Below are positions 41,602-57,679 of a DNA stretch of 64,000 nt, one piece after another (positions within the stretch are counted from its first letter, which is position 1; every line of letters starts with the position of its first letter). Source of the stretch: Methanomassiliicoccaceae archaeon (GTDB lineage Archaea; Thermoplasmatota; Thermoplasmata; Methanomassiliicoccales; Methanomassiliicoccaceae); assembly GCA_963728405.1 (NCBI GenBank), contig CAVSJV010000002.1:192001-256000 (forward strand). Direction: 5' to 3'. The position numbers and the translations under genes are program-made. The notes under the pieces were generated by a model. It ran no database searches and was not told where the DNA came from. It saw only the letters and a program-made list of their open reading frames with translations.

Positions 41602-41652
41602 TGTGCTACTTGTAGTCCCATCTCAGATGAGGGGGGGCCCCTATCGAGCGGC

Positions 41653-42958: not shown

Positions 42959-42962
42959 GGCC

Positions 42963-44195
42963 TTAGGCCCCGAACTTCTCCGAGCGATCCGCTTTGTCGA
43001 CCAGGATAGGCAGCAGGTCCTTGCCTCTGATCCTTCCAATGGCTCCGAGACCGCAGGAAACCTCATCGTAGGACCTGGTTCCGTCCTTGATAGTACTTTC
43101 CGAGCAGATGCATAACGGGACAGGGTCACCGGAATGGTCCATCCTCTCCACCGGGGTGCAGTGATCGGCGGCGAAGGCTACTACACTGCCCTCCGGCAGC
43201 CCCTCCCGCAACACTTTGGCCATGCCATCTAGGCGTTCGATGACCTCTATCTTCTTCTGAGGGTCGCCGTCATGCGAGGCGATGTCCGAGGCTTTGATGT
43301 TCATCAGGACGAAGTCCCTCCGCTCCAGCTCCCTCAGGGCAGTATGGGCCTTCGACACCATGTCGGTGTCCATGCCTCCTGTGGCTCCCGGCACATCAAC
43401 TATTTCCAGCCCGCACACTCGGCAGATGCCCTTGATGAGCGAAACGCCGGCCACGCACGAGGCGGACATGCCATAGCGCTTCTCGAAAGGTTCGATGCTG
43501 GGGAAAAGACCCGCCCCCCGCGGCAACAGAATGTTTGCCGGTAGCTTTCCCTCGTTCTTCCTGCGTACGTTGACCGGATGAGGGTTCAGGATCTCATACG
43601 ACCGCTTGACGAACGCGTTCACCACTTCGGCCGTCTTTTTGGCCTGGGGCACCATAGCTTCTGACATGTGCACCCGGGCGGCTTCGTGAGGGTCAGCATC
43701 GGTCACATGGGGGTCCAATCCCTCGCCCCGCAGCAGAAGGACAGCCCGGTGCTCGGTAGCGTCCCTGACGATGGCTTCGATACCATTTATCTCCAGGCCG
43801 TCCAGCGCCTTGACCAGCTCGCCGGTGTCTGGCTCCTTGATGCGTCCGGCACGGCGGTCCAGGACGGCCATCTTGTCATCCACGGTGGCGAAGTTGCAAC
43901 GGAATGCGATGTCCCCGCTCCGACCTACCAGCCCGACTCCGGCAGCCTCGAAGGGGCCCCTTCCGGTGTAGACGGAATAGGGATCATATCCCAATAGGGC
44001 CAAATGAGACGTGTCGGACCCCGGTCGGATCCCCGGTCCGATAACGTCCATGCTACCGGTCGATCCGTTCTGGGCGAACCAGTCCAGGTTGGGCTTCTTG
44101 GCCACTTGTAGGGGGGTCCTATATCCAAGCTGCTTGACCGCACGGTCGCCCAGACCATCCATGATAACGATCAGGATCTTCTTGCCGGAATCCAT
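42963..44195 (-). CDS. apgM: 2,3-bisphosphoglycerate-independent phosphoglycerate mutase
   Basis: MDGLGD, PGSDTSHL, YTGRGPFEA, AFRCNF, DIASHDG, ADHCTP...HSGDPVP. Confidence 0.95.
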   Translation of the reverse strand: MDSGKKILIVIMDGLGDRAVKQLGYRTPLQVAKKPNLDWFAQNGSTGSMDVIGPGIRPGSDTSHLALLGYDPYSVYTGRGPFEAAGVGLVGRSGDIAFRCNFATVDDKMAVLDRRAGRIKEPDTGELVKALDGLEINGIEAIVRDATEHRAVLLLRGEGLDPHVTDADPHEAARVHMSEAMVPQAKKTAEVVNAFVKRSYEILNPHPVNVRRKNEGKLPANILLPRGAGLFPSIEPFEKRYGMSASCVAGVSLIKGICRVCGLEIVDVPGATGGMDTDMVSKAHTALRELERRDFVLMNIKASDIASHDGDPQKKIEVIERLDGMAKVLREGLPEGSVVAFAADHCTPVERMDHSGDPVPLCICSESTIKDGTRSYDEVSCGLGAIGRIRGKDLLPILVDKADRSEKFGA

Positions 44196-44251
44196 CTTAT
44201 CGATCGTGCGTTATGGCTGAACGGTATTAAAAAGTAGTATTGCCGGGGAGT

Positions 44252-44629
44252 TTAGGCCATTGACCGGGACCAGACACCCTCGGGAAGGGAATCATAGAGC
44301 CCCAGCTCGATGTTCACTTCTTCCTGTTTCGGCGCAGCATACTTCACAATGCGGTCGGTGTTCAAGGCCCAGTAGAATACCCGCCAGGTCCTTCCAGAGG
44401 GCAAAATGGCCTCTTCCCAATGGGTTGACAATATCTGCACATCCTGGAGGAAGTAGAACATCCTACGATCATCCTGGTCCAAAGCATTGTCAATTATCTC
44501 GTTCTCAAAACCGAAATAGTTCAGCACACGGAATGAGATGTCAGCAGCGACATCTTCAGTTACCTCCAACTTGTGCTTGATCGCGCGGTCTAATATCTCG
44601 TAAGTAATAATCGGTCTAATACGGCTCAT
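44252..44629 (-). CDS. Conserved Thermoplasmata protein, DUF6015-like
   Basis: VLNYFGFENEIIDNALDQDDRRMFYFLQD...GRTWRVFYW...YDSLP..VW. Confidence 0.7.
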   Translation of the reverse strand: MSRIRPIITYEILDRAIKHKLEVTEDVAADISFRVLNYFGFENEIIDNALDQDDRRMFYFLQDVQILSTHWEEAILPSGRTWRVFYWALNTDRIVKYAAPKQEEVNIELGLYDSLPEGVWSRSMA

Positions 44630-44748
44630 CTATGTTCCCGATTAATATCTGTTTGCACTACTATATGAAGATAGGTATGTGACCCTTCCGAAAGCGCGTC
44701 CTATCTCCGTATCTGGCCAGGCGGCGGAAGGGTGTCGAAGGTAAGTTC

Positions 44749-45802
44749 TCAGATGACGATGTTCCCGTCCTTCAAGATCTGTTTCTCGTCAACCCAGATG
44801 GAAGGATTCTTTACCAGGCAATCCTGATGGATGAGGGCTGGGCCGTCGTTATCATAGTTGAACCCGATGGCAAAATGGCAGGTCTTTCCTACTTTCTCAT
44901 CCTCCAGCATATTGTTGACCATCTTGGCCTTATAGTTAAGGCCGATCCCGAGCTCTCCAATATTGCGAGCGTTGCGCTCCTCATCCTTTAAACCGTTGTC
45001 CCTAGCTCTCTTTTCGCCGCTCTTGATCACGTTCAACAAAGCATCGGCATCAGGGCTGTCAGTGATATCGGAGATGTAGCCGTCCTTGAACTTCACATGG
45101 ACCGGTTCGCGGGGCTGGACGCAGCTGGGAATGAGGTCCAGAGTGCCGTCGTAGACTATGGTTCCCTTGGTCGAGCCGACCACCGGGGAGATATATACCT
45201 CGCCGCAGGGCACATTCCCGCCGGTCCCAGGAGCGCGGAAATCGCCATCATCGGAATGGGCCCGCCGCCCTTCGATGGAAATGGTAACATCAGTACCAGC
45301 CGGGGCGGTGACCCGTACCTCTTTTCCGACGTCAAGGATACTCTTCAGTTTGGCAGCATTGGCCCTCATCTCGGCATAGTCGATAACCACGCAGCGCTCG
45401 AAAGTATCCCTTGTAAGCGACGGTGACCAGAACGATCGCAGCTTCCTTTCCCCCATCAGATAATACTGGATATGATCGTATTTCTTTCCATCATGACCAA
45501 TATAGCCGTTCTTCTGTCCGAATGGGTCCTTGCCGGTCTTGTAGAAAGGAACGGAGATGAAGATGTCAGGGTTCTCTCGGATGGCCGCTAGAACGGTGTG
45601 CTCGGCGAACTGGAGGATGGTCTTCGGTTCCTGGATGAGCATCACCGGTTTACCGCCCAGGGCTTTGGTCTGATCGAAAAGTGCCTTGGAGATATCGAAG
45701 GCATCGCCCTCGAAATTGGTCGCTATCACCACTTCCTCGCCGGGCCTTAACCCCAGCACGCTCCCTCATGGCCACCAAGGCCGCCTCTTCAAGCTTGGAC
45801 AT
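44749..45802 (-). CDS. M29/leucyl aminopeptidase family; frameshift near 45760
   Basis: GTDV, NVPCGEVYISP, IGELGIGLN, EDEK, HFAIG, HQD. Confidence 0.88.
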
Positions 45803-45962
45803 GATAAGCCCCTAAAACCTATGGTCTGGCACCGGCATAAGGCTATAATAGGCTTGCGTAAAAATCGTAAGTGAGATGCCTAGAACAACGATGTGATTCT
45901 AATGGGGCGTATATGATCACGAAGTGAAAAAGAGGGAAGTAGTTTAGAGATAGAAGTTCTGC

Positions 45963-46139
45963 TTAGAACCTTCTCTCGCTGCGTGCCGGCTTGTGCTTCT
46001 GGTAGCATTCCCTGCAGTAGACCGGCCTTCCCTCAGTCGGCTTGAATGGTACCTGGGTCTCGGCTCCACAGTCGGAGCACTTGGCATTATGCATCTCACG
46101 GGGCTCATCGCGTCTATATCCGCCTCTTCTGTCATTCAT
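45963..46139 (-). CDS. CxxC-x17-CxxC domain protein, 58 aa (missed by the ORF track)
   Basis: MNDRRGGYRRDEPREMHNAKCSDCGAETQVPFKPTEGRPVYCRECYQKHKPARSERRF*. Confidence 0.9.
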   Translation of the reverse strand: MNDRRGGYRRDEPREMHNAKCSDCGAETQVPFKPTEGRPVYCRECYQKHKPARSERRF

Positions 46140-46514
46140 ACAGATTACCTATTCTATGTTCCACAAACCTTACGGCTTGTGTATGCCACTCCAATTCATT
46201 TTCGGGTATAAAATATCACCTATCGGACCAATAATAAATGGAAATTATCGTACAATTAAAGGCCGTTCCTGTCGTTTTCAAACCTATATGTGACCACATC
46301 CTTTGTCAGGATATTTGCGTATAATTGCTCACGATCTTCGCCAGAGAGAAAAGATACAGAGTCATTGGAATGGACCTCTCCACCCGTGCACCCTTGTGTC
46401 TCACCACGGTGCGCTCGGCACGTCAAAAAATGAGGATTGAACTTAACATTCTGTCGGGTAAGCAGATGGCATATGGCCAAGGTTTATATGCCATTTTAAG
46501 CATCCATCCTCCCC

Positions 46515-46754
46515 ATGAACAAGAACGTCCTGACCGTCATCGTTGTCATACTTACACCCATCATTATCCTCGGGATCCTGGCAGTGGCCGGGGCTGAGAA
46601 CTTCGAGAAGGCCAAGGAAGCCGCCGGGGACGAGCACAGTGGGGAGAACACAACCGAGACCGCAGCTATGCTAGTCCCAATTCAGACCATCAAGCTCATC
46701 AACGCTCAGACCAATGACCTGTTTGGCTCCATTTGGATGCGGGCCCTGGTCTGA
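46515..46754 (+). CDS. Small protein with N-terminal signal/TM segment
   Basis: MNKNVLTVIVVILTPIIILGILAVAG; TTTATA upstream and pyrimidine tract downstream. Confidence 0.6.
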   Translation: MNKNVLTVIVVILTPIIILGILAVAGAENFEKAKEAAGDEHSGENTTETAAMLVPIQTIKLINAQTNDLFGSIWMRALV

Positions 46755-46846
46755 AACTCTTTATCATTTTCATTCATCTTTATAAGGAAAGGTCGGAGGA
46801 CTGTCGATCACGACGCCAACAATATTGGAAAAAAGTTTGGTCGTGA

Positions 46847-47083
46847 TCAGGCTTTAGGCCGCGAGGCTTTGGGCTCGCTGGTCATGACAATTCTGACCCT
46901 CTTGCCCGGCGGCACATCGATGACGACCTCCTCCTTCATGCTCCGATCTGATACTTCTTTCTCCTTTCGGACGTTCTTGTTCATCTTGAGCATCTTCTCG
47001 CTCGGCTCGTCGAGTAGGACAATGTTAAGCCTTCTCGCCTCTTCCGATGCCGCCAATATTAGTTCTCCCAAGTTAATCACCAA
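46847..47083 (-). CDS. Small hypothetical protein
   Basis: 78-aa ORF with protein-like composition (EEVVIDVPPGKRVRIVM); U-tract after the stop. Confidence 0.55.
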   Translation of the reverse strand: MVINLGELILAASEEARRLNIVLLDEPSEKMLKMNKNVRKEKEVSDRSMKEEVVIDVPPGKRVRIVMTSEPKASRPKA

Positions 47084-47669
47084 CTAGATCTACGGACAGG
47101 ACGCCTGACAATTCTATGTCGGCTTTTCCTAGATCGAACTTGTCCCCCGCCGCCGTAGGTTCGGAGGTACTATCGCAATGCACCCTAACGCGCTCCTAAC
47201 CAAATTGTTTTCTATGCTCCGCTCGATTCCGGGTTGCTTCGTTTTTCGGTTACAGACCTCTAGTTTTGGCCCATTTCATTGTGCATAAGATGGGGTATCG
47301 AAGAATATGTCCGCTTCTGAAATATATTTAACTTTTTGCGAATGGACGATCCATTCGATAGTGAGATTAGTGTTCAAGGGCGCGTTTGCGGCCTAAAAGA
47401 GGCTCATCTTGGCTTCGGAACATCCGATGATACTGTCGACATATCGAGACCGCTCATCTAACGGCCAATAAGACAGCACCAATGCAGCGACGGGTTGTAC
47501 AATTTACAAAGGCCACGGAGCCTTAGTATCCAGTTGTCGGTATCATCGAGACCAACATTGCCAGGAAAACTGCGTCCTCGAGCCCTTCCTGAAGAGATGA
47601 AATCAGAGACAGATATATCGGCAGTAGAAATCTCAAATAATTTAACAGAGTTCAGAGTTATGTGCCCAC

Positions 47670-48407
47670 ATGGCCATGGGACAGGTGGGCAGCTGGGAGG
47701 GTCTGAGATCGAGAGTGCAAGCTCCCTGCCCAGGTTGCCCCAGGAACTCGTCTAAGGTGCCTTTGATTTTCAGCCGTCGAGGTCCATCGACCCTAGTAGA
47801 TTTCATCGTGGTCTCTCAAGAACCTGGATATTGGCTTAGGGACCTGACCACCAGCGATGCCGCCGAGCAAAAACTGCAGAAGTTATGCACGGAGCAGAAA
47901 CCGATCGATGATCTGAAGAAGGCTAACCCCCTAACGAAGGTGGTCCAGATATTCGGCAGTTTCGATCCCACGGGAAGCAGAACATACTGGACGCACGCCC
48001 TGAAATGTATTCCGGAAAAGAGCGATCGTGACATCAACAAGGAATGGAGGAAGGCGGCCACTCGGTGCGAGGAACACTTCCTGGACGAGTTGAGATCTTT
48101 GGGTAAGGGGGAACTGAATGTCTTAGCTTTCGGCAAGTTTCCCCTCGAGATGTGTCTTCACATCTTTGAAGGCCAGGACATTGACCAGGACCTCAGTATA
48201 AGTGAGTTCATGCAATCCTCAAAATTACCGATCACCTACAAGTACAAGTTTAGGGACGGGACGACCAAATTTGTAAATCTCTTCGTGTTCACCAATCCGT
48301 CCAGTGAGGTGGTGAAGATCATGAAGAGCGGGGGGAAGTTAACGGTAGAAGAGATCCAAGAGCTGGAGATCAAACGCATTAAGGAGATCTTCGATAAGCG
48401 AAAGTGA
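47670..48407 (+). CDS. Divergent uracil-DNA glycosylase superfamily protein
   Basis: CPGC, FIVVSQEPG, YWTHALKC..., CEEHFLDEL, VLAFGK, FTNPS. Confidence 0.65.
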   Translation: MAMGQVGSWEGLRSRVQAPCPGCPRNSSKVPLIFSRRGPSTLVDFIVVSQEPGYWLRDLTTSDAAEQKLQKLCTEQKPIDDLKKANPLTKVVQIFGSFDPTGSRTYWTHALKCIPEKSDRDINKEWRKAATRCEEHFLDELRSLGKGELNVLAFGKFPLEMCLHIFEGQDIDQDLSISEFMQSSKLPITYKYKFRDGTTKFVNLFVFTNPSSEVVKIMKSGGKLTVEEIQELEIKRIKEIFDKRK

Positions 48408-48628
48408 GGTCGGTATGCAGCCGTTGCGAAACAGGGTGGTTTGCGGCTCCGAGGTTCTGATCCAGAAAGAACTGATCGGATTTCCCCGAGAGGTCCTACC
48501 GACGACCATTAGCGGTATGGGGGATATCTGATGTTACCACCACAAGATATGGCATCAATATCAAATTCACATCAGGTGATGACGCAATGAACTGCACGGC
48601 CCACTGCAATCATGCCTCTACGTTGGGC

Positions 48629-48997
48629 ATGAGCGGCATGGGTACAGATTTTGACAAAGGTGTCAGGATTGGGATGAAAACGATGTCGACACCCTATGGT
48701 ATCAAGCAGGTTGAGCATTGACGGGTCACTAATGCCATAGGTGGCATCACCACAGTAATAGGTCCCTACATCGGGGCGAAGAGCCCGGCGTTGTACAAGA
48801 TGGTCACGACTACGGCCGGTGTGGTGGATCTAATCTGCGCTGGCATCTCGACCATGGTTCTGAGTGATACGAACTCGCTGATGCAAAAACGGCAATACCT
48901 GAGCTCCAAAACTCTATTGTCCCTTTCCTACCGAATAGTGATACCATTATGCAGTATAGGGCTGAATAAGGGCCGAATCCGTAGCAGGGATCGATAG
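48629..48997 (+). pseudogene. Decayed gene fragment with in-frame TGA at 48719
   Basis: KTMSTPYGIKQVEH*RVT...LYKMVTTT...MVLSDTN, a beta-rich pattern; 5' part scrambled. Confidence 0.45.
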
Positions 48998-49147
48998 TTC
49001 AAGCAATGGGATCGGGCCGCAACGGCATCAATGAATGTGATTCGGCCTGGTCATCTCTGTCCGAATTACTTTCTGCTCTCCTTTCGGCCGTCAACAATTG
49101 TCCATTGTTGTGATATTTTATTAATGAGCCGATGCAACAATATTGAT

Positions 49148-50176
49148 ATGACCTCCAAAGGGCGGTTCCTAGCGGCACTGGAACTTGAGATGCCTGATAG
49201 AGTTCCGACCATGCACATCCAGTTGGGTGGGGCCAATCATCTCCAGGACAGCACCGGAATGGCGATCCGCGAGGCATATTACGACGCAAATAAATTCGCT
49301 CGTTTATGTTTAGCGTCAATGGAATTTGGTTTTGACAATGTCATGGTCGCCTGGGGGGACCTCCTCAACGAAGCGCAGGCCTTCGGGGTCGAGCTCACTT
49401 TTCCTAACGAGAAGGATTATCCGCGGGGGACGCCGATCTCCCCCGACAAGATCGAGGGGCTCGAGGTCATCGACCCTATGGGCGATGACGTATGGGCCAC
49501 ATCATTGAGAGCAGCTAAGATCGTCAATGATAAGGTGGGGAACGAAATGGCGGTGATCGGGCAGGTCAGCGACCCCTTTACCTTGGCCGCCGCGATCCGA
49601 GGGTTCGATGGCCTGCTTATGGACGAGATCATGGAACCTGACCGTACTCATCATCTACTCAGCGTGGTCACCGATTCACTGAAAGAATACGGTAGGCTGC
49701 TCAAGGAATATGCTGGGGTTGAGATCATCTTCATAGAAGATGGAAGCGCCGACGCAGAGCAGAACATGTTCGACCTGGCCAAGGCGTTCGACATTGATTA
49801 TACCAAGCAAATGGCTGAGCTCTATCATCCCATGGGGCTGCGCTCGATCCTGAGCAATTGTGCCAAAGAGCCCTATCTGGATGCTCAGTTTGAAGCTGTC
49901 AAGCCAACCGCGGTCCACACATCGGTCGAATGGAGCGGATATGGTGATGAATTAAGTAAGCTGAGGGGCCGAGCATGCATTGCAGCTGGCCTATTGCCTC
50001 ATTTCATAGCTCGTTCCGATCCCGGAATGATACGCCAAAAAGTAAGCGAGGTGGTCCGTTCGTCGGGAGATGGCAGCGGGCTCATCATCACATCGGCTGG
50101 GGAAATACCCTTCGACGCTCCCCTCAGCAACATCAAGGCGTTGAGCGGTTCAACCGCACTGATCACGCTCCCCTGA
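49148..50176 (+). CDS. URO-D / MtaA-CmuA methyltransferase family protein
   Basis: MTSKGRFLAAL...PDRVP, EAQAFG, DPFTLA...RG, EIPFDAPLSNIKA. Confidence 0.85.
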   Translation: MTSKGRFLAALELEMPDRVPTMHIQLGGANHLQDSTGMAIREAYYDANKFARLCLASMEFGFDNVMVAWGDLLNEAQAFGVELTFPNEKDYPRGTPISPDKIEGLEVIDPMGDDVWATSLRAAKIVNDKVGNEMAVIGQVSDPFTLAAAIRGFDGLLMDEIMEPDRTHHLLSVVTDSLKEYGRLLKEYAGVEIIFIEDGSADAEQNMFDLAKAFDIDYTKQMAELYHPMGLRSILSNCAKEPYLDAQFEAVKPTAVHTSVEWSGYGDELSKLRGRACIAAGLLPHFIARSDPGMIRQKVSEVVRSSGDGSGLIITSAGEIPFDAPLSNIKALSGSTALITLP

Positions 50177-50347
50177 TGGAAATGTAGTAAGTGGGAAATA
50201 TTGAACGCAGAGGCCGGGAGAGACCAGACCTTGGCAGTCCGGTTCTAAGATATTTGGGCGTGGCCTAATATATTCTTCCTGCGACGCGCTCTGTACGATA
50301 CTAGTGAAGTTGGAGTGCATCGGACCAATGGTCCCTGGGCCGATGGC

Positions 50348-50791
50348 TCACATCAGGCCTAGCTGTCTCATCATTCCCACAAGGTCATAGAACAGTTTCT
50401 CCTCCGTGATTTCTCCGTTCCTCCAGTGGGCCACGGTACAGAATTCAATTTTGAACTTCTTGTTCGTTGGTGGGATCATTTTCCGTCAGACCCCTTCAGC
50501 GACCCCTTCATGGTACCAGTGAACTCGGCAACGGAACAAGTGTGGTCGCCCTGGGCGAAAAATATCTTGTAGGGGGTCGTTCACGATGCGATTGTCCGGA
50601 AAGGTGTGGAAAAATTCTTTCGCCCCAGCCTCATGATTCTGGCGCATCCGGGTCGGCTCCGATTGTCCCGGCCACTATGCGGAGACATCATTAGCATGGC
50701 GTTCGTTGAAAGTTGGTCAGTCCTGAGCGTTCTAAGCATCGTCCAGCGTCTTCATCAGTCGCATGTTCTCCTCCACGTTTACCTGCGTCAT
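50348..50791 (-). pseudogene. SnoaL-like ester cyclase pseudogene
   Basis: VEENMRLMKTLDDA*NAQD*PTF...*WPGQ...FPDN...CSVAEFTGTMKG...IPPTNKKFKIEFCTVAHW...FYDLVGMMRQLGL; stops at 50732, 50717 and 50675 plus two frameshifts. Confidence 0.85.
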
Positions 50792-51031
50792 AATGGAAAA
50801 AGTGAAACGCGTAGTATTTAGCCTATACACGAAAACCTGGCGGCACTCGCCTCCAGTCACACCATGTGGAAAATGCAAGGTGCATGGCGCGGTCGGAACG
50901 CACGGACCACCAACGGGGGAGGGCTCAGTGAGCTATCATATCGGGATCGAGGACTCGTTGGAGCATAATTAGCACTGATCTTGAATGAAATAAAAAAATA
51001 AGAGCGATCTCATCAATCAATGATGCCGGAG

Positions 51032-51370
51032 CTAACGCATTCCTCCTCTTTCAGGTGAGGTGATCTGCTCTATATTCTTCTGTCGAGAATCAGTGTCGGC
51101 GGGGGTTTTATGAAGCGCCCTGTCGCGGTGTTCAAGAGCTTCAAGATCAATGTTTCCCCCGCTGGGAGGTTCGATTCGGACACTTTCCTCGTCCACGGTG
51201 CTTATCATGCCCCCCTGTCGAGGTGCCTTCACAGGATCAAAGCTTTTGCGTGCCTCATCGACATCCGGTGCGGTGCGGCTGAGTGTTTTGTCCCTGAGTC
51301 GTAGCTCTTCATCAGCAAACTTGTTGACATTTGCCGTTTTCTTTTGTCCCTCGTCCATCTTTGTTTTCAC
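51032..51370 (-). CDS. Small hydrophilic protein with an internal duplicated ~35-aa motif
   Basis: LRLRDKTLSRT..D...P..GGM versus LEHRDRALHKT..D...P..GGM; TATA-like TTTATAA upstream. Confidence 0.65.
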   Translation of the reverse strand: MKTKMDEGQKKTANVNKFADEELRLRDKTLSRTAPDVDEARKSFDPVKAPRQGGMISTVDEESVRIEPPSGGNIDLEALEHRDRALHKTPADTDSRQKNIEQITSPERGGMR

Positions 51371-51544
51371 CCCTGTTACCTAATATTGACGTCAGAGTTC
51401 CATATACTTATAAACGTGTGTAAGAAAAACAATGCTGGGCATAGTCTATTACACGTTCCAAAAATGGAGCCATGTCTCCGTTGTAACATCCAAACTTCTG
51501 AAAAAGACAGCGCTAGGGCCCGAAAGATTTGCCAAAGCCTGATA

Positions 51545-51601
51545 TGGCACAGGGGGAGGATCTTGAACCTAGGACCACTAAAGGTGGGATCCCCATGTCC
51601 T
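51545..51601 (-). repeat. Degenerate copy of the tRNA-Leu 3' half (att-like scar 2)
   Basis: tggcacagggggaggatcttgaacc-taggaccactaaaggtgggatccccatgtcct aligns to 54047-54103. Confidence 0.75.
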
Positions 51602-51767
51602 CGAAAGAGGAAATGGCCACCCATCGTACTCCTCTCCGGAGCCTTACGGCGGTCATCTCAAGTATTTGACGGACTCTCGGGCGGTGGTCCCCCCCTCGCT
51701 TGAGAGAGCATGGCCAGGAGAAACATGCTCCTTTACCTGCACCTTGCTTACTTCAATGCTCAGGGGG

Positions 51768-51941
51768 TCATTTGCTCGAGCGACGATTCTCTGCGGCCAA
51801 GCTGAGGGCCAACACTATCCCGATGAAGATCAAGAGAAGATAGATGGGCGAATCATAAAGATAGAACAAGAACCCGCCGACTATCATTACTACTGAAAGA
51901 ATGGTCAGACTAATCGTCCTGACCACGGAGGGATTCACCAC
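51768..51941 (-). CDS. Small 2-TM membrane protein, 57 aa (missed by the ORF track)
   Basis: MVNPSVVRTISLTILSVVMIVGGFLFYLYDSPIYLLLIFIGIVLALSLAAENRRSSK*. Confidence 0.6.
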   Translation of the reverse strand: MVNPSVVRTISLTILSVVMIVGGFLFYLYDSPIYLLLIFIGIVLALSLAAENRRSSK

Positions 51942-52189
51942 GGTCTTAAAAATTGAGCTATTGGAGTATATTTCATTCGCTCACCTTTATGTATACCAAA
52001 ACACGAATTTGTCTCTCAAAGTAGTGATTGCCCTATGGGTGAGGGACTGCGAAAATACGCTCACACAAGACTTAGGTCGAAAAATAATACTAAATGTTTA
52101 TGGGGTCGATCTGAGCAGGTGGATCGGTAAATCACTCGGAGGCTCAGTTTCCAGGTGGTTCTTCGATCATCTGTCGCAGTGTCATCATC

Positions 52190-52507
52190 TCAAGCGAAGA
52201 TCACTGCCATTACTGGACCATGGACTTCCTGGTTCATCAGTTGAGGCGGTTCGGTCGCAATGGACTGAAGCTTCTTGGAGACCTTCTGATAGATACCTTT
52301 CTGAGAAGCATTCATTGTATTTTCCGAGTCCCACAAGGCAATGAATGTCGCAGTGTTCGGGTCGTCCATGGACTGGAGAGTGAGCATTCCTCTGAAGCCC
52401 TCCGTCTTCCTAATCTCTTCCATGAAGCCCTCTACGGTCTCAACCGCTTCTGCTCTTTTCCCGGGCTTGAACTTCCATATGGTCATCCTTGCGTGTACCA
52501 TGGCCAT
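52190..52507 (-). CDS. Antibiotic biosynthesis monooxygenase (ABM) domain protein
   Basis: ARMTIWKFKPGK, EGFRG, ALWDSE. Confidence 0.8.
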   Translation of the reverse strand: MAMVHARMTIWKFKPGKRAEAVETVEGFMEEIRKTEGFRGMLTLQSMDDPNTATFIALWDSENTMNASQKGIYQKVSKKLQSIATEPPQLMNQEVHGPVMAVIFA

Positions 52508-52689
52508 CTCCAGTTGAAAAGATGTAGAATCGATGGATTAAATATCTTTCCTGATGTGACGGCGCCATCGATCCATCGCCTTAATGGCAAACCGGAGAAG
52601 GAAGCGCATCAAAGATAAGAATGATCGATGAGCATCCTCGAATGGAAGTGTCCAGAAAGCTCTGCGGTGTACTAATTTAAAGAACTAGT

Positions 52690-52738
52690 TGGCGCAGGGG
52701 AAGGGATTTGGACCACCAAGAATGGGATCCCATATTCT
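52690..52738 (-). repeat. Degenerate copy of the tRNA-Leu 3' half (att-like scar 1)
   Basis: tggcgcaggggaagggatttg[8-nt deletion]gaccaccaagaatgggatcc aligns to the 3' half of the tRNA. Confidence 0.85.
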
Positions 52739-52851
52739 CAAAAGAGATATCTGGCCCCATCATCTGTCTCTTCCGCCGCTCTTTCGCTGAGCTCAATCGT
52801 TTAACGCCGTTCTTGGTCCGGTGAACGCTCCATCCCCTGCCTGCTTCTAAC

Positions 52852-53919
52852 CTACTTGTACCGCAGTATGCCTCCCACCTTAATCGTCGACACGAACATC
52901 CCCCCCAGTTCACTCTCGTCGTTGACGACCAAGACCTCGGTGCGGTAGCTCTCGGCCGTCTCCGAGATTTCCTCGATGTCCTTCAGCTCTAGTGCGTCGC
53001 TGACGATAACCACGTCTACCTGACCCCGTCTCAACAGTTCCGCAGTCTTTTCGAGACCCCATACTGCCAGGCCGTCCCTTCCTAGCTCGGCCCAGAACCG
53101 GTCCAGCACCTCTTTCTCGTGGTGGTACTCACAATTCGCCAGCAAGCCTTTTGCCGCATTCATTGCCTCTCGAAGTCCGTTCTCATCGGTATAACCGACG
53201 TCGACAACCCCGATCACCTTTTTGCGTAGCTCGTGATGAAGGTAATTACCAGCCATGAAGTCATCCTTGGTCATGGCCGGGCCGCCGACGATGATACCCC
53301 TCAGACCCTGATCCAGAAAGGCCTCGGTGCACCGGTCCGATATTCTCTTGAAATACGCGTTAATGGCGTCGTCCCTTAGCCGCTCGAACCTTAGGCTAGA
53401 CATGCCTCCGTGGTGGTGCTTGTTGGGAACCCGCGACTCGATTTGGGTATACGCCTTGATGACGGTTCCGGTGACGTAACCGAGGGTGGCCTCGGCCAGG
53501 TCTAGGACCAGGATGCCGTAAGTATCACGGGTTTCGGTCATCAGATAGAGTGGATCGAGGAAAAACTCGCTGTCGCACCTGTAGACGAAATCGGAGAGCG
53601 GCATAGGCGGCTCTATCACCTGGCGGTGGAGGCGGTCATCGACCTCGCCGAACAGTAGCACTAGGCCGTTGCCCGGAGCGATCTTACCCAGGCTAGTCAA
53701 CTGGGATAGGAGCGATGAGATAGCTGTCTGAATGTTCTTGCCAAGGAGCTGGGACTCGCTCCCCTTGGCCTCCGAGTAGTGGTCCTGGAGATAGACACGG
53801 ACATCGCTGATGGGCTTGCCGGGCGGGATGTACAACGAGATCAGTTGGGCTCTGTCCGCCTTGATGCTCCGGGCATGGTCCAATCGCTTCTTGAACAAGG
53901 GTGCGTTCATCCAATACAC
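52852..53919 (-). CDS. Divergent peptide chain release factor aRF1 paralog (GGQ replaced by GGM)
   Basis: LISLYIPP, NGLV, IEPP...YRCDSEFFLDPL, YGILVLD, VPNKHHHGGMSSLRFERL, GGP...K, YLHHEL, GYTDENGLRE, GGILRY. Confidence 0.9.
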   Translation of the reverse strand: MYWMNAPLFKKRLDHARSIKADRAQLISLYIPPGKPISDVRVYLQDHYSEAKGSESQLLGKNIQTAISSLLSQLTSLGKIAPGNGLVLLFGEVDDRLHRQVIEPPMPLSDFVYRCDSEFFLDPLYLMTETRDTYGILVLDLAEATLGYVTGTVIKAYTQIESRVPNKHHHGGMSSLRFERLRDDAINAYFKRISDRCTEAFLDQGLRGIIVGGPAMTKDDFMAGNYLHHELRKKVIGVVDVGYTDENGLREAMNAAKGLLANCEYHHEKEVLDRFWAELGRDGLAVWGLEKTAELLRRGQVDVVIVSDALELKDIEEISETAESYRTEVLVVNDESELGGMFVSTIKVGGILRYK

Positions 53920-54046
53920 CTACAATCGATCAATGGGCATTGAATATGAAACAGTTAACAATATACTCAAGCGTTATTGTTATGCCCCCTAAGCTGGCAA
54001 TACGCCTCTGATAAAGAAATAATCCGTAACGAATGGATACGCATGA

Positions 54047-54133
54047 TGGTGCAGGGGAAGGGATTTGAACCCTTGGACCACTAAGGATAGGATCCTAAGT
54101 CCTACGCCGTTGGCCAAGCTTGGCTACCCCTGC
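54047..54133 (-). tRNA. tRNA-Leu (anticodon TAG) with encoded CCA
   Basis: GCAGGGG...TAGGA-CTTAGGA-TCCTA...long variable arm...GGTTCAAATCC...CCCCTGC-ACCA; 87 nt. Confidence 0.95.
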
Positions 54134-54160
54134 TTCTGGCCACCTAACGACTAATTATTC

Positions 54161-54614
54161 TTAATTCTTTTCCTCGATCCGGACGGCCCGTTCCAGCTCC
54201 GACTGCAGATATTTCCTCATCACTTCCATGGCGTTCTCCCTGGACTGGGGATAGGATTTCACCTTGCCGCGTATGGCGATGACGTCCTCACCGTCGGCCA
54301 TCTTGAACTGCCGGAGGAATGCTTCCTGCTTGCCCAACCTTAGGAAGAAGAACGATTCTTCGTCCAACCTACGGTCCAGGGAGTCCAGCAGCTGCGAAAG
54401 GTCCTCCCTGCTCAACGAACGGAACAATGCCTTGATACTCTTGGCATCGGTGACCTTCACCTCCATAACAATGATGGGGTTGCCATGGTAGCCGGTGCTG
54501 CTGCTCTGCTTTATCTCCTCGGCCCCAGAAACGAACTTCAGAGCCTGCTCGACCCGGTTGGGGTCCTCGGTGGCGTGAGCGAACTGTCCGGAAGGCCAGA
54601 TTGGCGATGTCCAT
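54161..54614 (-). CDS. Archaeal RNA-binding protein (DUF54 family); frameshift near 54585
   Basis: FAHATEDP.RV, GYHGNPI, FFLRLGKQEA. Confidence 0.85.
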
Positions 54615-54754
54615 GTTCGTTGATATGTCGCAGGGATAATTATGTTTTTCCGCAGGCTAAAATTAATTCCATTAGTTTAAATAATGCTGGCTCAACTTTT
54701 GAGGTTTCTTTGAGGACGGAGAGAAATGGGGAAGCAATACGAGGTCCGGGCAGT

Positions 54755-55306
54755 ATGATCGAGGTTCGATTCCATGGTAGGGGCGGACAGGGCGCTGTGA
54801 TCGCCTCAGAGATATTGGCAAGGGCTGCGGTAAAGGAAGGCATGTACGCTTCGGCCTTCCCGTTCTTCGGGGTCGAGCGCCGTGGAGCCCCGGTCATGGC
54901 GTTCTGTCGTATCGATGACCGACCGATCCGCATACATGCAGGGATCTACGACCCCGACCATGTGGTCATCCTGGACCAGGGGCTGATCAAACTGGTCGAT
55001 GTTCTCCAAGGGCATCGAAAGAACGGATCCATCGTGGTCAACACCGCAAAGACGCTCACCGAGCTTGGGCTGTCCCTCGACCGCCGCCAGGTTCTGGTCG
55101 ATGCCACATCGATCGCGTTGCGCCGAGGATTGGGCAGCGAGACCGCCCCGATCGTCAATACCGCCATTCTGGGGGCGTTCGCCCGGGCCTGCTCCAAGGT
55201 CTCGATCGATGCGATTCTAGAAAGCATCAAGGAGTCGGTGCCAGCAAAGCCCGAACAGAACGTGGCAGCAGCTCAGGACGCCTACCAACAATGGGAGTGG
55301 TTGTGA
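54755..55306 (+). CDS. porC: 2-oxoacid (pyruvate/ketoisovalerate):ferredoxin oxidoreductase gamma subunit
   Basis: EVRFHGRGGQGAV, FPFFGVERRGAPV, NTAILGA. Confidence 0.9.
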   Translation: MIEVRFHGRGGQGAVIASEILARAAVKEGMYASAFPFFGVERRGAPVMAFCRIDDRPIRIHAGIYDPDHVVILDQGLIKLVDVLQGHRKNGSIVVNTAKTLTELGLSLDRRQVLVDATSIALRRGLGSETAPIVNTAILGAFARACSKVSIDAILESIKESVPAKPEQNVAAAQDAYQQWEWL

Positions 55307-55582
55307 TGTTCAGGACAGTATCACGACCTGCCTTCCGTTCCGGTGACCTCTCAGAGCACCGAAGACGTTATTACCGGGACGTGGAGGACCATCCGGCCGG
55401 TACTGGATGGGGACAAGTGCATTCGTTGCTACATCTGCTGGAAGTACTGCCCCGACCTGAGCATCAAGGTCGAGGAGGAGGGCGCCTATCCAGAGATCGA
55501 TTACGATCATTGCAAGGGCTGCGGCATCTGTTCGAACGAATGCCCCAAGGGAGCGATCCGAATGGAAAGGGAGCAGCTATGA
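55306..55582 (+). CDS. porD: 2-oxoacid oxidoreductase delta subunit (2x[4Fe-4S]); probable indel just after the ATG
   Basis: TGTWRTIRPV, CIRCYICWKYCPD, DYDHCKGCGICSNECP. Confidence 0.88.
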
Positions 55583-56760
55583 TCGACATGATGACCGCGA
55601 ACTATGCCGCGGCCTACGCGGCCAAGCTCGCCAGGATTGACGTCGCCGCGGTATATCCCATCACCCCGCAGACATCTATATCAGAAAAACTGGCCGAGAT
55701 GGTGCAAAAAGGGGAACTGGATGCCAAGTACATGCTCATGGAGAGCGAGCATTCCGCGATGTCGGCGCTCATTGGCGCGTCGTACGTCGGCGCCAGGACC
55801 TTCACCGCCACCTCTTCGCAGGGTCTTGCGTTGATGCATGAAATGCTCATGTGGGCGGTGGGAGCGAGGACGCCGATCGTCATGCCGGTGGCCGCAAGGG
55901 CCATCGGGGGGCCTTGGAACATCTGGGGAGAGCATCAGGACGTCATCACCGAGCGGGACACCGGCTGGATGCAAATATTCTGTGAGAATAACCAGGAGGT
56001 CCTGGACACCGTGCTCATGGCCTATCGGGTGGCCGAGGACCGCCGGGTGATGCTGCCGGCGATGGTCATTGAGGATGGGTTCATACTGTCCCATACGGTC
56101 GATAGCGTCGATGTACCATCGCAGGAGGAAGTAGACCGGTACCTACCGCCATTCCGTCCCGAGTACCCCATCGATGTTGAACGACCGATCCGTCATGGAG
56201 GGCTGGTCATGCCAGATTGGTGGACGGAGTTCCGTTATCGTATCTACCTCGACCAGGAGAATGCCCGCACCAAGATATTGGAGGCTGAGAAGGAGTTCCA
56301 GAAGGCCTTCGGCAGGAGCTACGGCGGCATGATGGAATACTACCAGTGCGACGATGCTGCCGTCATCCTGATCGTGGCCGGGTCGGCCGCCGGGACGGCC
56401 AAGGAGGTCGTCGACACGCTGAGGTCCCAGGGCAAGAGGGTCGGAGTGGCCAAGCTACGGGTCTTCCGCCCCTTCCCGACAGAGGAATTGCGTCTGCTGG
56501 CATCGATGTCCCATACTATTGGAGTATTTGATCGGAGCTATACCTTCGGGGACGGCGGTGCCATGTTCAACGAGGTCCGTTCCGCACTGCAGGGGCATGA
56601 GGTGATCATCAAGGATTATGTCGGAGGCCTGGGCGGCAGGGATGTGACAGTGAAGAACATTGAATGGATCTTCGAGGACCTGCTCAAGATATCGAAGGGC
56701 GGTAGGGTTGACCGCCCCATAGAATGGGTCGGGTTGAAGGACGGGACCGGGAGGTGGTAG
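55579..56760 (+). CDS. porA: 2-oxoacid oxidoreductase alpha subunit
   Basis: YPITPQT, ESEHSAMS, TATSSQGL, LRVFRPFP, GLGGRD. Confidence 0.9.
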   Translation: MIDMMTANYAAAYAAKLARIDVAAVYPITPQTSISEKLAEMVQKGELDAKYMLMESEHSAMSALIGASYVGARTFTATSSQGLALMHEMLMWAVGARTPIVMPVAARAIGGPWNIWGEHQDVITERDTGWMQIFCENNQEVLDTVLMAYRVAEDRRVMLPAMVIEDGFILSHTVDSVDVPSQEEVDRYLPPFRPEYPIDVERPIRHGGLVMPDWWTEFRYRIYLDQENARTKILEAEKEFQKAFGRSYGGMMEYYQCDDAAVILIVAGSAAGTAKEVVDTLRSQGKRVGVAKLRVFRPFPTEELRLLASMSHTIGVFDRSYTFGDGGAMFNEVRSALQGHEVIIKDYVGGLGGRDVTVKNIEWIFEDLLKISKGGRVDRPIEWVGLKDGTGRW

Positions 56761-56761
56761 G

Positions 56762-57679
56762 ATGGACGATGATGCAGCACAGAGGAACTTTAAGTTCACT
56801 ATCCCGAAGGAAGAGCTGATGGCGCCAGGACACAGTGGATGCCCCGGTTGCGGTGAGCCTTTGGCCCTACGCTACCTCCTCAAGGCCCTGGGGCCAAGAA
56901 CGATCGTCAATGTGCCGGCAGGGTGTTGTGCGGTCATACCGGGCGTATGGCCACGCTACTCGCTCAAAGTGCCCTTGGTCGACCATGCCTTCGAGTGCAC
57001 CGCGGCCGTGTCGTCAGGAATCAAGGCCGCGCTGGAGCAGAAAGGCCTTGATGACATCACGGTGGTGGGATGGGCCGGGGACGGGGGGACTGTCGATATC
57101 GGTCTGCAATCCCTGTCCGGGGCGGTCGACCGCCAGACCGATTTTCTCTACGTCATGTACGACAACGAGGCGTACATGAACACTGGTATCCAGTGCAGCG
57201 GCTCAACGCCCTGCGGAGCGTGGACCACCACCACCCCGGGAGGAAAGGGCATCGACCAGCGTCAGGGAAAGAAGCGTATCATGGATATGCTGATCGCCAA
57301 TGGTATCGCCTACGGCGCGACAGTGAACGTGGCCTACCCGGAGAACTTCATCGAGACGGTCCGTCAGGCCAAGGCGATAAAGGGTCCGAAGTTCATTCAT
57401 GCATACTCTCCGTGCCCCTCGGGCTGGAGGATGGACCCCCGACGATCGATCGAGGTCTCTCGCCTGGCCACTCAGACCGGGGTCTTTCCATTATACGAAT
57501 ATCGTGATGGGGTCCACAGATTCACCAAAGAGATTAAGAAGAGGAAGCCGGTTGAAGAATATCTTCGCCTCCAGGGGCGGTTCAGGCATCTGACCCCCGC
57601 TGACGTGGCCGAGGTCCAAAAGCTCATCGACCTTGAGGGTGAGGAGCTGGAGGCCAAGGTGAGGGCGAGTAGAAGGTGA
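56762..57679 (+). CDS. porB: 2-oxoacid oxidoreductase beta subunit (TPP-binding)
   Basis: GCPGCG, GDGGTVDIG, DNEAYMNTGIQ, SPCPSGW, YLRLQGRF. Confidence 0.9.
   Translation: MDDDAAQRNFKFTIPKEELMAPGHSGCPGCGEPLALRYLLKALGPRTIVNVPAGCCAVIPGVWPRYSLKVPLVDHAFECTAAVSSGIKAALEQKGLDDITVVGWAGDGGTVDIGLQSLSGAVDRQTDFLYVMYDNEAYMNTGIQCSGSTPCGAWTTTTPGGKGIDQRQGKKRIMDMLIANGIAYGATVNVAYPENFIETVRQAKAIKGPKFIHAYSPCPSGWRMDPRRSIEVSRLATQTGVFPLYEYRDGVHRFTKEIKKRKPVEEYLRLQGRFRHLTPADVAEVQKLIDLEGEELEAKVRASRR

What the first reader, a model, noticed from the sequence alone, without database searches (positions are those of the whole stretch)
52852..53919. Island-borne aRF1 paralog with GGQ changed to GGM and decoding motifs erased: possible translation-termination modulator
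Seen: an uninterrupted 355-aa three-domain aRF1 is the only gene between tRNA-Leu and its att scar. The catalytic loop is KHHHGGMSSLRFERL; the Met is ATG at 53401-03, at least two substitutions from a Gln codon, so it is unlikely to be a sequencing error. The NIKS region reads EAKGSES, the GT(S/E) loop reads DRAQ, YxCxxxF is kept (YRCDSEF), and the C-domain insertion is missing while GGILRY remains. Knowledge: GGQ drives peptidyl-tRNA hydrolysis; NIKS, GTS and YxCxxxF read stop codons. Inference: a mobile-element-derived factor that could still bind aEF1A, the A site or ABCE1 but not terminate normally. It could act in Pelota-like rescue or hibernation, as a dominant-negative, or in tuning UAG stop versus pyrrolysine decoding. 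This is the best candidate for an undescribed system here.
Basis: partly seen in the sequence, partly recalled or inferred. Interest (0 to 1): 0.8.

Follow-up and report, generated by a model that had tools for sequence, protein, structure and literature searches.

The report
Archaeal release-factor paralog with GGM
A second, divergent copy of the archaeal translation-termination factor, present in a few methane-producing archaea, has lost its stop-codon-reading motifs and replaced its catalytic glutamine with methionine, yet selection keeps it, so it probably does a different, still unknown job on the ribosome.

Summary
Window 52852-53919 (minus strand; likely ATG start at 53910, 352 aa) encodes an intact three-domain aRF1-like protein with GGM instead of GGQ, no NIKS and no GT(S/E) loop. 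YRCDSEF and the C-terminal GGILRY are kept, and the C-domain insertion is missing.

It is not a decaying copy. All 39 proteins with Met at this position share HHHGGMSS, and dN/dS is 0.12-0.24 among close relatives. A canonical aRF1 and a pelota lie elsewhere in the genome.

The family is rare: 10 of 261 genomes of the order (Methanomassiliicoccales by record titles), and 1 of 11 in the window's genus. It shows no shared synteny. Here it sits in a 3.5-kb lineage-specific segment beside tRNA-Leu, bounded by a degenerate copy of the tRNA's 3' part, with no integrase.

It is separate from the putative archaeal Balon lineage.

In the sister subclade, 12 of 15 genes carry an in-frame TAG at one codon (Tyr in the window). 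Purifying selection acts on both sides of it, and four of the five such genomes lack PylS, PylD and tRNA-Pyl.

The window's genome lacks Pyl genes, so a pyrrolysine role here is not supported. The function is inferred: a stop-codon-independent ribosome factor. No description was found in print.

The parts
52852..53910 (-). aRF1-like paralog CDS of the GGM family: 352 aa from the ATG at 53910, with its TAG stop at 52852-52854.
   Evidence: ORF. Pfam and NCBIfam hits. P0121 is identical from Met4. An SD-like AGGTG lies upstream of the ATG.
53401..53409 (-). GGA GGC ATG, the GGM that stands in place of the GGQ catalytic motif. It is invariant across the family.
   Evidence: Sequence, alignment A1. 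All 39 proteins with Met here share HHHGGMSS.
53791..53793 (-). TAT, Tyr43 of the 355-aa ORF. The homologous codon is an in-frame TAG in 12 of 15 genes of the sister subclade.
   Evidence: Codon alignment; TAG states.
53740..53775 (-). Degenerate NIKS-equivalent loop (…SEAKGSESQLLG…). This is the fastest-evolving part of the protein.
   Evidence: Alignment A1. dN/dS of codons 41-75 is 0.06-0.49 among relatives and 0.83 between G000 and G221.
54047..54133 (-). tRNA-Leu (anticodon TAG). Its 3' end faces the paralog.
   Evidence: ARAGORN.
52686..52730 (-). Degenerate direct copy of the 3' part of tRNA-Leu (an att-like scar) that bounds the 1.3-kb segment holding the paralog.
   Evidence: alignment A3.
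51545..51592 (-). Second, more diverged copy of the 3' part of tRNA-Leu.
50518..54046 (.). Lineage-specific variable segment between blocks that are syntenic with the nearest species. In G039 an unrelated 6.3 kb takes its place.
   Evidence: blastn of window against G039, G038 and G033 loci; ORFs of the G039 segment.
52190..52507 (-). ABM-domain ORF (105 aa), the only other family-assignable gene in the variable segment.
   Evidence: Pfam PF03992, 36.2 bits.

Best explanation
The gene encodes a member of a small, conserved family that split off from archaeal release factor aRF1. [quoted passage not shown] It has lost the stop-codon-reading elements (NIKS and the GT(S/E) loop) and the catalytic Gln, which is Met in every member.

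I think it most likely enters ribosomes without needing a stop codon and places its GGM loop in the peptidyl-transferase centre. In that reading it works as a rescue-type or back-up factor, a slow or altered peptidyl-tRNA hydrolase and ribosome-release factor for stalled ribosomes, and not as a normal terminator.

Shown:
- the anatomy;
- purifying selection;
- the family's rarity, its patchy distribution and its placement in variable regions;
- its separateness from canonical aRF1, Pelota and Balon-like proteins.

Inferred:
- ribosome, aEF1-alpha and ABCE1 binding;
- codon independence;
- any hydrolysis.

In the sister subclade a conserved in-frame UAG gates synthesis of the protein. That fits a factor which must be kept scarce, or be made only when termination at UAG is inefficient.
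For: Family and fold:
- aRF1 is the best match by profile (TIGR03676, 326.8 bits), by sequence to solved structures (4af1, E 8.5e-63), and by fold of the AF2 model (pLDDT 77; 4af1, E 5.9e-32; Balon 7.6e-17; Pelota about 1e-13).

Constraint on the loop:
- All 39 proteins with Met at the Gln position share HHHGGMSS, although family members are only 43-62% identical overall.
- RFERLRDDAINEYFKK is nearly invariant as well.

Selection:
- Whole-gene NG86 dN/dS is 0.12-0.24 for nine pairs with unsaturated dS. The M domain gives 0.04-0.20.

Loss of decoding:
- The NIKS and GT(S/E) regions differ between subclades and evolve fastest.

Not redundant with the housekeeping factors:
- The genome also has a canonical aRF1 with GGQ and NIKS, and a pelota.

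Gating:
- 5 of the 9 other genomes and 7 of 7 metagenome loci carry TAG at one codon, in the context GAA TAG CTC CAR G.
- In two independent pairs of TAG-bearers, codons before the TAG show Nd 14.3 against Sd 24.7 (binomial P = 3.6e-8), and codons 41-75 show P = 0.002.
- TAG ends neighbouring genes in those loci.

Recalled, from no call: in bacterial release factors the Gln side chain is not essential for hydrolysis, whereas the Gly-Gly backbone is.
Against: - There is no functional datum of any kind. No RNA-seq holder was listed, and no protein, binding or activity evidence exists.
- Eukaryotic eRF1 GGQ mutants are reported as inactive or dominant-negative (titles seen in the reference list read, plus recall), so GGM may be catalytically dead.
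- Pelota already covers ribosome rescue in archaea and is present here.
- Only 10 of 261 genomes of the order have the gene, and 1 of 11 in the genus, so whatever it does is dispensable.
- The window's own gene has no TAG, so the gating argument is borrowed from the sister subclade.
- Selection on TAG-bearing genes in Pyl-free genomes could partly date from Pyl-positive ancestors.
- The canonical aRF1 of this assembly is frameshifted. If that were real and not an assembly error, the division of labour assumed here would be wrong.
Confidence: 0.4

Rival explanations
1. It is a non-catalytic A-site occupant: a Balon-like or Pelota-like factor that parks or protects idle ribosomes (hibernation) or only promotes subunit splitting with ABCE1, without any peptide release.
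For: - Like the Balon and putative archaeal Balon proteins, it lacks both NIKS and the Gln of GGQ. This was the criterion used in PMC13324472 (passages read).
- There are weak matches to Balon-family profiles: Rv2629 family, 48.2 bits, and Balon chains among the fold hits.
- The gene is found in larger-genome, free-living lineages, by record titles from fen, peat and soil.
- Gating by a stop codon would suit a stress-induced factor.
Against: - It scores far below the Balon cut-offs (48 against 320 bits) and above the aRF1 cut-off.
- In the tree it lies on the aRF1 side. A long branch, supported 100 on both sides, separates it from the nine Thermoplasmatota Balon-like proteins, which are about 25% identical to it and carry GG[W/M/Q]SQ.
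- An inert plug gives no obvious reason for an invariant HHHGGMSS loop.
Confidence: 0.3
2. It modulates termination at UAG. It acts as a competitor of aRF1 (a dominant-negative anti-terminator) or as a sensor that tunes amber read-through, originally in connection with pyrrolysine decoding.
For: - The family is known only from the order that record titles name Methanomassiliicoccales, an order reported to encode pyrrolysine.
- 12 of the 15 genes of the sister subclade carry a conserved in-frame UAG with an invariant context. This links synthesis of the protein to the fate of UAG.
- Release-factor genes that sense their own stop codon are known, for example bacterial prfB (recalled).
Against: - The window's genome has no PylS or PylB (the genome is 93.75% complete), no tRNA with a CUA anticodon, and uses TAG for about 23% of its stops.
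- Of the 10 genomes with the gene, 6 lack PylS.
- Four of the five TAG-bearing genomes lack PylS, PylD and tRNA-Pyl.
- 251 of the 261 genomes of the order lack the gene.
- The loop that would have to read UAG is not conserved.
Confidence: 0.15
3. It is still a bona fide release factor, with a changed codon preference or with no need for Gln methylation, and serves as a spare terminator.
For: - It scores above the curated aRF1 cut-off.
- The Gly-Gly pair, YxCxxxF (in the window's protein) and GGILRY are kept.
- The nearest outgroup, the short aRF1-like proteins P0033, P0036 and P0037, keeps GGQ and an NIKS-like motif.
Against: - NIKS and GT(S/E) are gone, and the region is not conserved within the family.
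- YxCxxxF is lost in several members.
- The distribution is patchy and the gene is dispensable.
Confidence: 0.1
4. It is a decaying duplicate, or the GGM is an assembly or sequencing artefact with no function.
For: - The assembly is error-prone: 33 of 183 compared ORFs are split across frames.
- The gene sits in a variable region among short, unassignable ORFs.
Against: - The ORF is intact despite that error rate.
- GGM recurs in 39 of 39 family proteins from many assemblies.
- dN/dS is well below 1 in all three domains.
Confidence: 0.03

Closest known systems
Canonical archaeal release factor aRF1 (NCBIfam TIGR03676; PDB 4AF1, 3AGK)
   Same: It has the same three-domain fold, 38-46% identity to canonical aRF1, a score above the family cut-off, the Gly-Gly loop, RFERL, and the C-terminal GILRY.
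   Different: Gln is replaced by Met. NIKS and GT(S/E) are lost. The C-domain insertion found in Thermoplasmata aRF1 is absent. The gene is rare and not syntenic, and a canonical copy coexists with it.
Second aRF1 of Methanosarcina (aRF1-2), reported inactive in release assays and of unknown function
   Same: It is an extra aRF1-like gene beside a working aRF1 in a methanogen, with no assigned role (passages of PMC12626013 and of PMC2943090).
   Different: I could not obtain an aRF1-2 sequence. The two Methanosarcina proteins that turned up (P0320 and P0371, 415 aa) are canonical, with GGQ and NIKS. No member of the GGM clade is named Methanosarcina. Relatedness was therefore not tested.
Balon (a bacterial aeRF1-like hibernation factor) and the 'potential archaeal Balon' lineage of PMC13324472
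   Same: It is an aeRF1-superfamily protein without NIKS and without GGQ, coexisting with aRF1, with a restricted distribution.
   Different: It is a different lineage. Thermoplasmatota Balon-like proteins are about 25% identical to it, carry GG[W/M/Q]SQ and a C-domain zinc ribbon, score 124-142 bits on the aRF1 profile, and sit across a long, fully supported branch. The paper's supplements, which may list members, were closed.
Pelota / Dom34
   Same: It is an aRF1 paralogue that acts without a stop codon, is delivered by aEF1-alpha, and works with ABCE1 (family knowledge, and passages of PMC2613156). The C-domain insertion is likewise absent.
   Different: Pelota has lost the whole GGQ loop and has a different N domain. 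The window's protein scores 64 bits against a pelota cut-off of 177.65. The genome has its own pelota.
Stop-codon-gated release-factor genes (bacterial prfB in-frame UGA; recalled) and codon-independent GGQ hydrolases (ArfB, ICT1, Vms1/VLRF1; Burroughs and Aravind, PMC6514570, passages read)
   Same: In both, an in-frame stop codon early in a release-factor-family gene is conserved with its context, and both involve the idea of a release-factor scaffold used away from stop codons.
   Different: Here the stop is read in frame, with no frameshift. Four of the five genomes that carry it show no dedicated tRNA or Pyl system. The window's own gene has Tyr at the site. VLRF1-type proteins keep a Gln (GGxSQ), which the GGM family does not.

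Membership tests
aRF1/eRF1 (TIGR03676) | Profile score above the curated cut-off and the three eRF1 domains | tested here: met
   It scores 326.8 bits against a cut-off of 234.7. eRF1_2 and eRF1_3 are above their Pfam cut-offs, and eRF1_1 is just below (21.4 against 23.8). The best fold hits are aRF1 and eRF1.
aRF1/eRF1 (TIGR03676) | GGQ catalytic motif | tested here: not met
   It is GGM in the window and in 39 of 39 family proteins.
aRF1/eRF1 (TIGR03676) | Stop-codon reading motifs NIKS and GT(S/E) | tested here: not met
   SEAKGSES and ADRAQ stand in their place, and the region is not conserved within the family.
aRF1/eRF1 (TIGR03676) | YxCxxxF motif and C-terminal GILRY | tested here: met
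   YRCDSEF and GGILRYK are present. YxCxxxF is lost in some members, for example P0002, P0015, P0028 and P0032.
Pelota (TIGR00111) | Profile score above the cut-off | tested here: not met
   It scores 64.4 bits against 177.65. A separate pelota lies at C5:401690-402719.
Balon / ribosome hibernation factor families (NF052287-9) | Profile score above the cut-off | tested here: not met
   The Rv2629 family scores 48.2 bits against 320. There was no match at E <= 1e-15 in the genome search.
Putative archaeal Balon lineage (PMC13324472) | Lacks NIKS and GGQ AND belongs to the one monophyletic lineage apart from aeRF1 | tested here: not met
   The motif criterion is met. In the 61-row tree, however, the GGM clade is on the aRF1 side, apart from the nine Balon-like proteins (support 100 on both sides). 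The paper's own member list was not seen because supplements were closed.
Methanosarcina aRF1-2 | Orthology to the Methanosarcina second aRF1 | not tested
   No aRF1-2 sequence was obtained. Alkalaeva et al. 2009 is not in the searchable library.
tRNA-integrated genomic island | Abuts the 3' end of a tRNA gene and is bounded by a direct repeat of the tRNA's 3' part | tested here: met
   The tRNA-Leu 3' end is at 54047, and the copy at 52686-52730 is degenerate.
tRNA-integrated genomic island | Absent from the same locus in close relatives | tested here: met
   The flanks are syntenic with G039, G033 and G038, while the segment 50518-54046 is not. None of the 10 other genomes of the genus has the gene.
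tRNA-integrated genomic island | Integrase or other mobility genes, and atypical composition | tested here: not met
   No integrase-like ORF was found. GC is 0.57 against a genome mean of 0.574. There were no relatives in IMG/VR.

The most novel reading that the evidence does not exclude
The GGM family is a ribosome factor whose own synthesis is set by termination efficiency. In most members a conserved in-frame UAG (context GAA UAG CUC CAR G) must be read through, even in genomes that have no PylS, PylD or tRNA-Pyl and that use UAG as an ordinary stop. The factor would then be made only when aRF1 fails at UAG, or when amber suppression is high. That would be an archaeal, in-frame counterpart of the bacterial prfB autoregulatory stop, and evidence for programmed amber read-through without pyrrolysine in archaea. 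The window's gene would be the ungated (Tyr) form of the same factor.
Probability: 0.2. Interest if true: 0.85.

Novelty: new variant of a known kind. Interest (0 to 1): 0.62.

Why it matters
Extra aRF1-like genes in archaea have been noted but not explained. Examples are Methanosarcina aRF1-2 and the putative archaeal Balon.

This family is a separate and more recent offshoot of aRF1. It shows a clean, invariant Gln-to-Met change in the universally conserved GGQ motif, together with loss of the decoding motifs. That makes it a natural experiment on what the Gln does, and on how release factors are re-used for rescue or dormancy.

The family scores above the curated aRF1 cut-off, so annotation pipelines are likely to name it 'aRF-1' and counts of release-factor copies may include it.

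The conserved in-frame amber codon in relatives that lack pyrrolysine machinery raises a testable question: how is UAG read in those archaea?

Tried and rejected
1. prfB-like frameshift in the canonical aRF1. The genome's canonical aRF1 reads GTC TGA C GTG where 9 of 9 aligned genus relatives have GTC TAC/TAT GTG. That looked like a programmed +1 site. However, 33 of 183 ORFs orthologous to G039 are split over two frames in this assembly (some of the 183 are overlapping antisense ORFs), and pelota is split as well. I therefore treat it as a probable assembly indel.

2. Viral origin. No relative of the GGM profile or of P0037 was found in IMG/VR.

3. Shared neighbourhood. ORFs within ±6 kb of seven related genome loci share nothing with each other or with the window except the gene itself. 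Neighbours are ordinary genes: DUF116, a PNPOx-like gene and ABC ATPases.

4. TAG-recoded neighbours. In the five TAG-bearing loci examined, TAG ends neighbouring ORFs, and only the paralog gains substantial length when TAG is read through.

5. A suppressor tRNA in the complete genome G217. None of 41 Rfam tRNA hits has a genuine CUA anticodon. One 'Pyl' call is an alternative intron-mode reading over tRNA-Thr. Intron-bearing tRNAs may be mis-assigned.

6. A read-through-promoting RNA structure after the TAG. The consensus fold is -5.4 kcal/mol, the covariation term is +1.09, and there is 1 compensatory pair in 20.

7. Host of the GGQ-keeping short sister proteins (P0037 and kin). They were not found in 400 sampled genomes of the phylum and carry no source names.

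8. Origin of the family. The tree places the short clade outside the Thermoplasmatota canonical aRF1. The AU test does not reject holding them together (p = 0.137), so the origin stays open.

9. Expression. No RNA holder was listed. The one DNA run, a peat metagenome with a share of 0.05, gave contigs 90-94% alike over 53067-53691 only. The amber-site codon was not covered.

10. Literature.
- No paper holds GGM, GGQ and 'release factor' together.
- The searches for Methanomassiliicoccales or Methanomassiliicoccus with aRF1 or release factor gave nothing on a second aRF1.
- Alkalaeva 2009 is not searchable.
- Supplements were closed. Table S9 of PMC12626013 (genomes with two aRF1) and the Balon lists of PMC13324472 may mention these genes.

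Full report
**What is in the window.**

The ORF at 52852-53919 lies on the minus strand and is open for 355 codons from a GTG. The plus strand of the same span is closed. The probable start is the ATG at 53910, which has an AGGTG 7 nt upstream. The public protein P0121 (352 aa) equals the ORF from that Met.

Family assignment:
- Pfam finds eRF1 domains 2 and 3 and a weak domain 1.
- NCBIfam's aRF1 model scores 326.8 bits against a cut-off of 234.7. Pelota scores 64 and the Balon families at most 48, all far under their cut-offs.
- The best solved relative is aRF1 4AF1 (E 8.5e-63).
- An AlphaFold model built on 12 family sequences (pLDDT 77) matches aRF1 and eRF1 best, then Balon, then Pelota.

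- KHHHGGMSSLRFERL, with the Met codon ATG at 53401-53403 on the minus strand;
- SEAKGSES where NIKS should be;
- ADRAQ where GRGTE should be;
- YRCDSEF kept;
- the Cys-rich C-domain insertion missing;
- GGILRYK at the end.

**It is a family, not an accident.**

A search of 5.8 billion proteins returned 722 hits at E <= 1e-10. Of the 120 listed, 37 carry GGM. With two cluster mates added, all 39 proteins that have Met at this position share HHHGGMSS. They are 43-92% identical to the window's protein. After them identity drops to about 40%, which is canonical aRF1.

A profile search of 1.84 billion representatives ranks as follows:
- one GGM representative first (512 bits);
- then short aRF1-like proteins that still have GGQ (P0037 at 366 bits, then P0128 and P0129);
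- then ordinary aRF1 at about 270 bits.

In two trees the GGM clade is well supported (SH-aLRT 99). It nests in a clade (99-100) with those short GGQ proteins, which share RFERLRDDAINEY and the missing C-domain insertion.

NG86 dN/dS between genes with unsaturated dS is 0.12-0.24 overall, and is below 1 in the N, M and C domains. Decay and sequencing error are therefore excluded.

**The genome has the housekeeping factors.**

The aRF1 model finds a second locus on contig 7 (514.5 bits), with GGQ, NIKS and the zinc-ribbon insertion. The pelota model finds a pelota on contig 5.

In this assembly both are split over two frames. The canonical aRF1 has TGAC where 9 of 9 aligned relatives of the genus have TAC or TAT. 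I checked whether that could be biology. Of 183 ORFs orthologous to the nearest species, 33 are split in the same way. The assembly is rich in indels, and these two breaks are most simply errors. Given that error rate, the intact paralog ORF is noteworthy.

**Distribution and context.**

Record titles name the order Methanomassiliicoccales. Of its 261 species genomes, only 10 hold the gene:
- the window's genome, and none of the 10 other genomes of its genus;
- one other genome of its family (G018, 62% identity);
- eight genomes of a second family, f7 (52-57% identity).

ORFs within ±6 kb share nothing across eight loci except the gene itself, and the neighbours are ordinary genes.

In the window, synteny with the nearest species (86% nucleotide identity) holds for 41233-50517 and for 54047-56868. 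It breaks between them. The window's 3.5 kb there is replaced in that species by an unrelated 6.3 kb without mobility genes.

The tRNA-Leu 3' end faces this segment. Two degenerate copies of the tRNA's 3' part lie at 52686-52730 and 51545-51592. The paralog is the only gene between the tRNA and the first copy.

There is no integrase. GC equals the genome mean. IMG/VR holds no relative.

So 'in a tRNA-linked variable region, probably acquired' is supported. 'Derived from a mobile element' is not shown.

**An unexpected feature of the relatives.**

In five of the nine other genomes, and in seven of seven JGI metagenome loci, the gene has an in-frame TAG at one codon. That codon is TAT (Tyr43, 53791-53793) in the window. 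The context GAA TAG CTC CAR G is the same in all twelve. This explains why 27 of the 37 database proteins are N-terminally short gene calls.

Rooted on the GGQ-keeping sisters, the window's gene and G018 branch first and have sense codons. In the f7 clade, 12 of 15 genes have TAG. The three exceptions are TAT, TAC and GAG, each one step from TAG. Canonical aRF1 has Tyr at this position.

Both sides of the TAG are under purifying selection in two independent pairs of TAG-bearers:
- before the TAG, Nd 14.3 against Sd 24.7, P = 3.6e-8;
- codons 41-75, P = 0.002.

Four of the five TAG-bearing genomes, one of them a complete chromosome, lack all of the following:
- PylS;
- PylD;
- tRNA-Pyl.

In addition, the complete genome shows no tRNA with a CUA anticodon among 41 tRNA hits. 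TAG ends neighbouring genes in those loci, and no conserved RNA structure follows the TAG.

How that UAG is read is unexplained. A caveat is that Pyl loss could be recent.

**Pyrrolysine in this genome.**

PylS and PylB were not found (the genome is 93.75% complete). No tRNA with a CUA anticodon was found. TAG ends 486 of 2083 long ORFs, including the paralog itself. A role in Pyl decoding is therefore not supported for this organism.

**Comparison with known families.**

A 2026 paper (PMC13324472; passages read) reports 'potential archaeal Balon'. These are aeRF1 homologues without NIKS and GGQ that form one lineage, found in Methanosarcinia, Syntropharchaeia and several Thermoplasmatota.

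I found that lineage in 11 of 121 sampled genomes of the phylum. Its proteins carry GG[W/M/Q]SQ and a zinc ribbon, and are about 25% identical to the window's protein. They score 124-142 bits on the aRF1 model. A long, fully supported branch separates them from all aRF1, including the GGM clade. The GGM family is thus a separate and later loss of the motifs.

Methanosarcina's second aRF1 is reported as inactive in release assays (passages). I could not obtain its sequence.

The AU test does not reject an origin of the short clade within Thermoplasmatota aRF1 (p = 0.137).

**Mechanism.**

Shown:
- scaffold conservation;
- the invariant Gly-Gly-Met loop;
- loss and fast evolution of the decoding loops;
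- selection, rarity and lack of synteny;
- amber gating in the relatives.

Inferred: the protein still enters the A site, probably with aEF1-alpha, but without reading a stop codon, and it docks its loop in the peptidyl-transferase centre.

I favour a rescue-type, possibly slow, hydrolase or release factor (0.4). Two points support this. The Gly-Gly loop is held invariant, which an inert plug would not need. And a codon-independent releaser would have to be kept scarce, which an early UAG achieves.

The rivals are:
- a non-catalytic, Balon-like role (0.3);
- a UAG or anti-termination role (0.15);
- a true release factor (0.1);
- no function (0.03).

No experiment or expression datum bears on any of these.

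**Verdict.**

This is an undescribed variant of a known kind of protein, an aRF1-derived paralogue. It is of fairly high interest, mainly for the natural GGQ-to-GGM change and for the conserved amber codon in Pyl-free relatives.

Noticed in passing
Related loci L010:6118, L012:6118, L013:6118, L014:6115, L026:2439 (minus strand), and L152-L158; the homologous codon in the window is 53791-53793: In 12 of 15 genes of the sister subclade the paralog has a conserved in-frame TAG, in the context GAA TAG CTC CAR G. Purifying selection acts on both sides of it. Four of the five genomes concerned lack PylS, PylD and tRNA-Pyl.
   Followed up: yes
G000:C7:90606-91907 (locus L001, about 1480-1495): The genome's canonical aRF1 is split by a 1-nt insertion (GTC TGA C GTG where relatives have GTC TAC GTG). 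This is probably an assembly indel, but it sits in the one gene whose integrity matters for this finding.
   Followed up: yes
G000 as a whole; pelota at C5:401690-402719: About one in six compared ORFs (33 of 183 against G039) is split over two frames, pelota among them. The assembly looks indel-rich, so broken genes in it should not be read as pseudogenes.
   Followed up: partly
Loci L142-L150 (other Thermoplasmatota genomes): A separate aeRF1-like family has GG[W/M/Q]SQ in place of GGQ, no NIKS, and a C-domain zinc ribbon. It is probably the 'potential archaeal Balon' of PMC13324472. Its motif resembles the GGxSQ of the VLRF1 families.
   Followed up: partly
Proteins P0109, P0134, P0156 (GGWSQ); P0189, P0233 (GGFSQ); P0240 (GGESA): These are otherwise canonical-looking aRF1 proteins. 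Five of the six keep NIKS, yet Trp, Phe or Glu stands at the Gln position and most have a Gln two residues later. They are scattered among canonical aRF1 in the tree.
   Followed up: no
Proteins P0157 and P0176, and some 40 others of 500-970 aa: aRF1 genes interrupted by an intein (Intein_splicing, LAGLIDADG and HTH domains), inserted in the M domain two residues after the GGQ position. Matches to the profile break at positions 172/173.
   Followed up: partly
Window 45760-47670: There is no ORF of 100 aa or more here, although the stretch is syntenic with G039 at 78-80% identity. It may hold genes broken by assembly indels or genes with in-frame stops.
   Followed up: no
Window 54161-54466 (minus strand): A 101-aa ORF with the Pfam RNA_binding domain (PF01877, 53 bits) lies just upstream of tRNA-Leu. 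It is outside the variable segment and conserved in relatives.
   Followed up: no
G039:C14 (L061) and G033:C13 (L063): The same tRNA-Leu locus in two sister species also carries partial tRNA-Leu copies and unrelated cargo (an ABM-like gene, a cupin, a CDF transporter and Lrp regulators in G039). The site is a recurrent insertion hotspot in the genus.
   Followed up: partly
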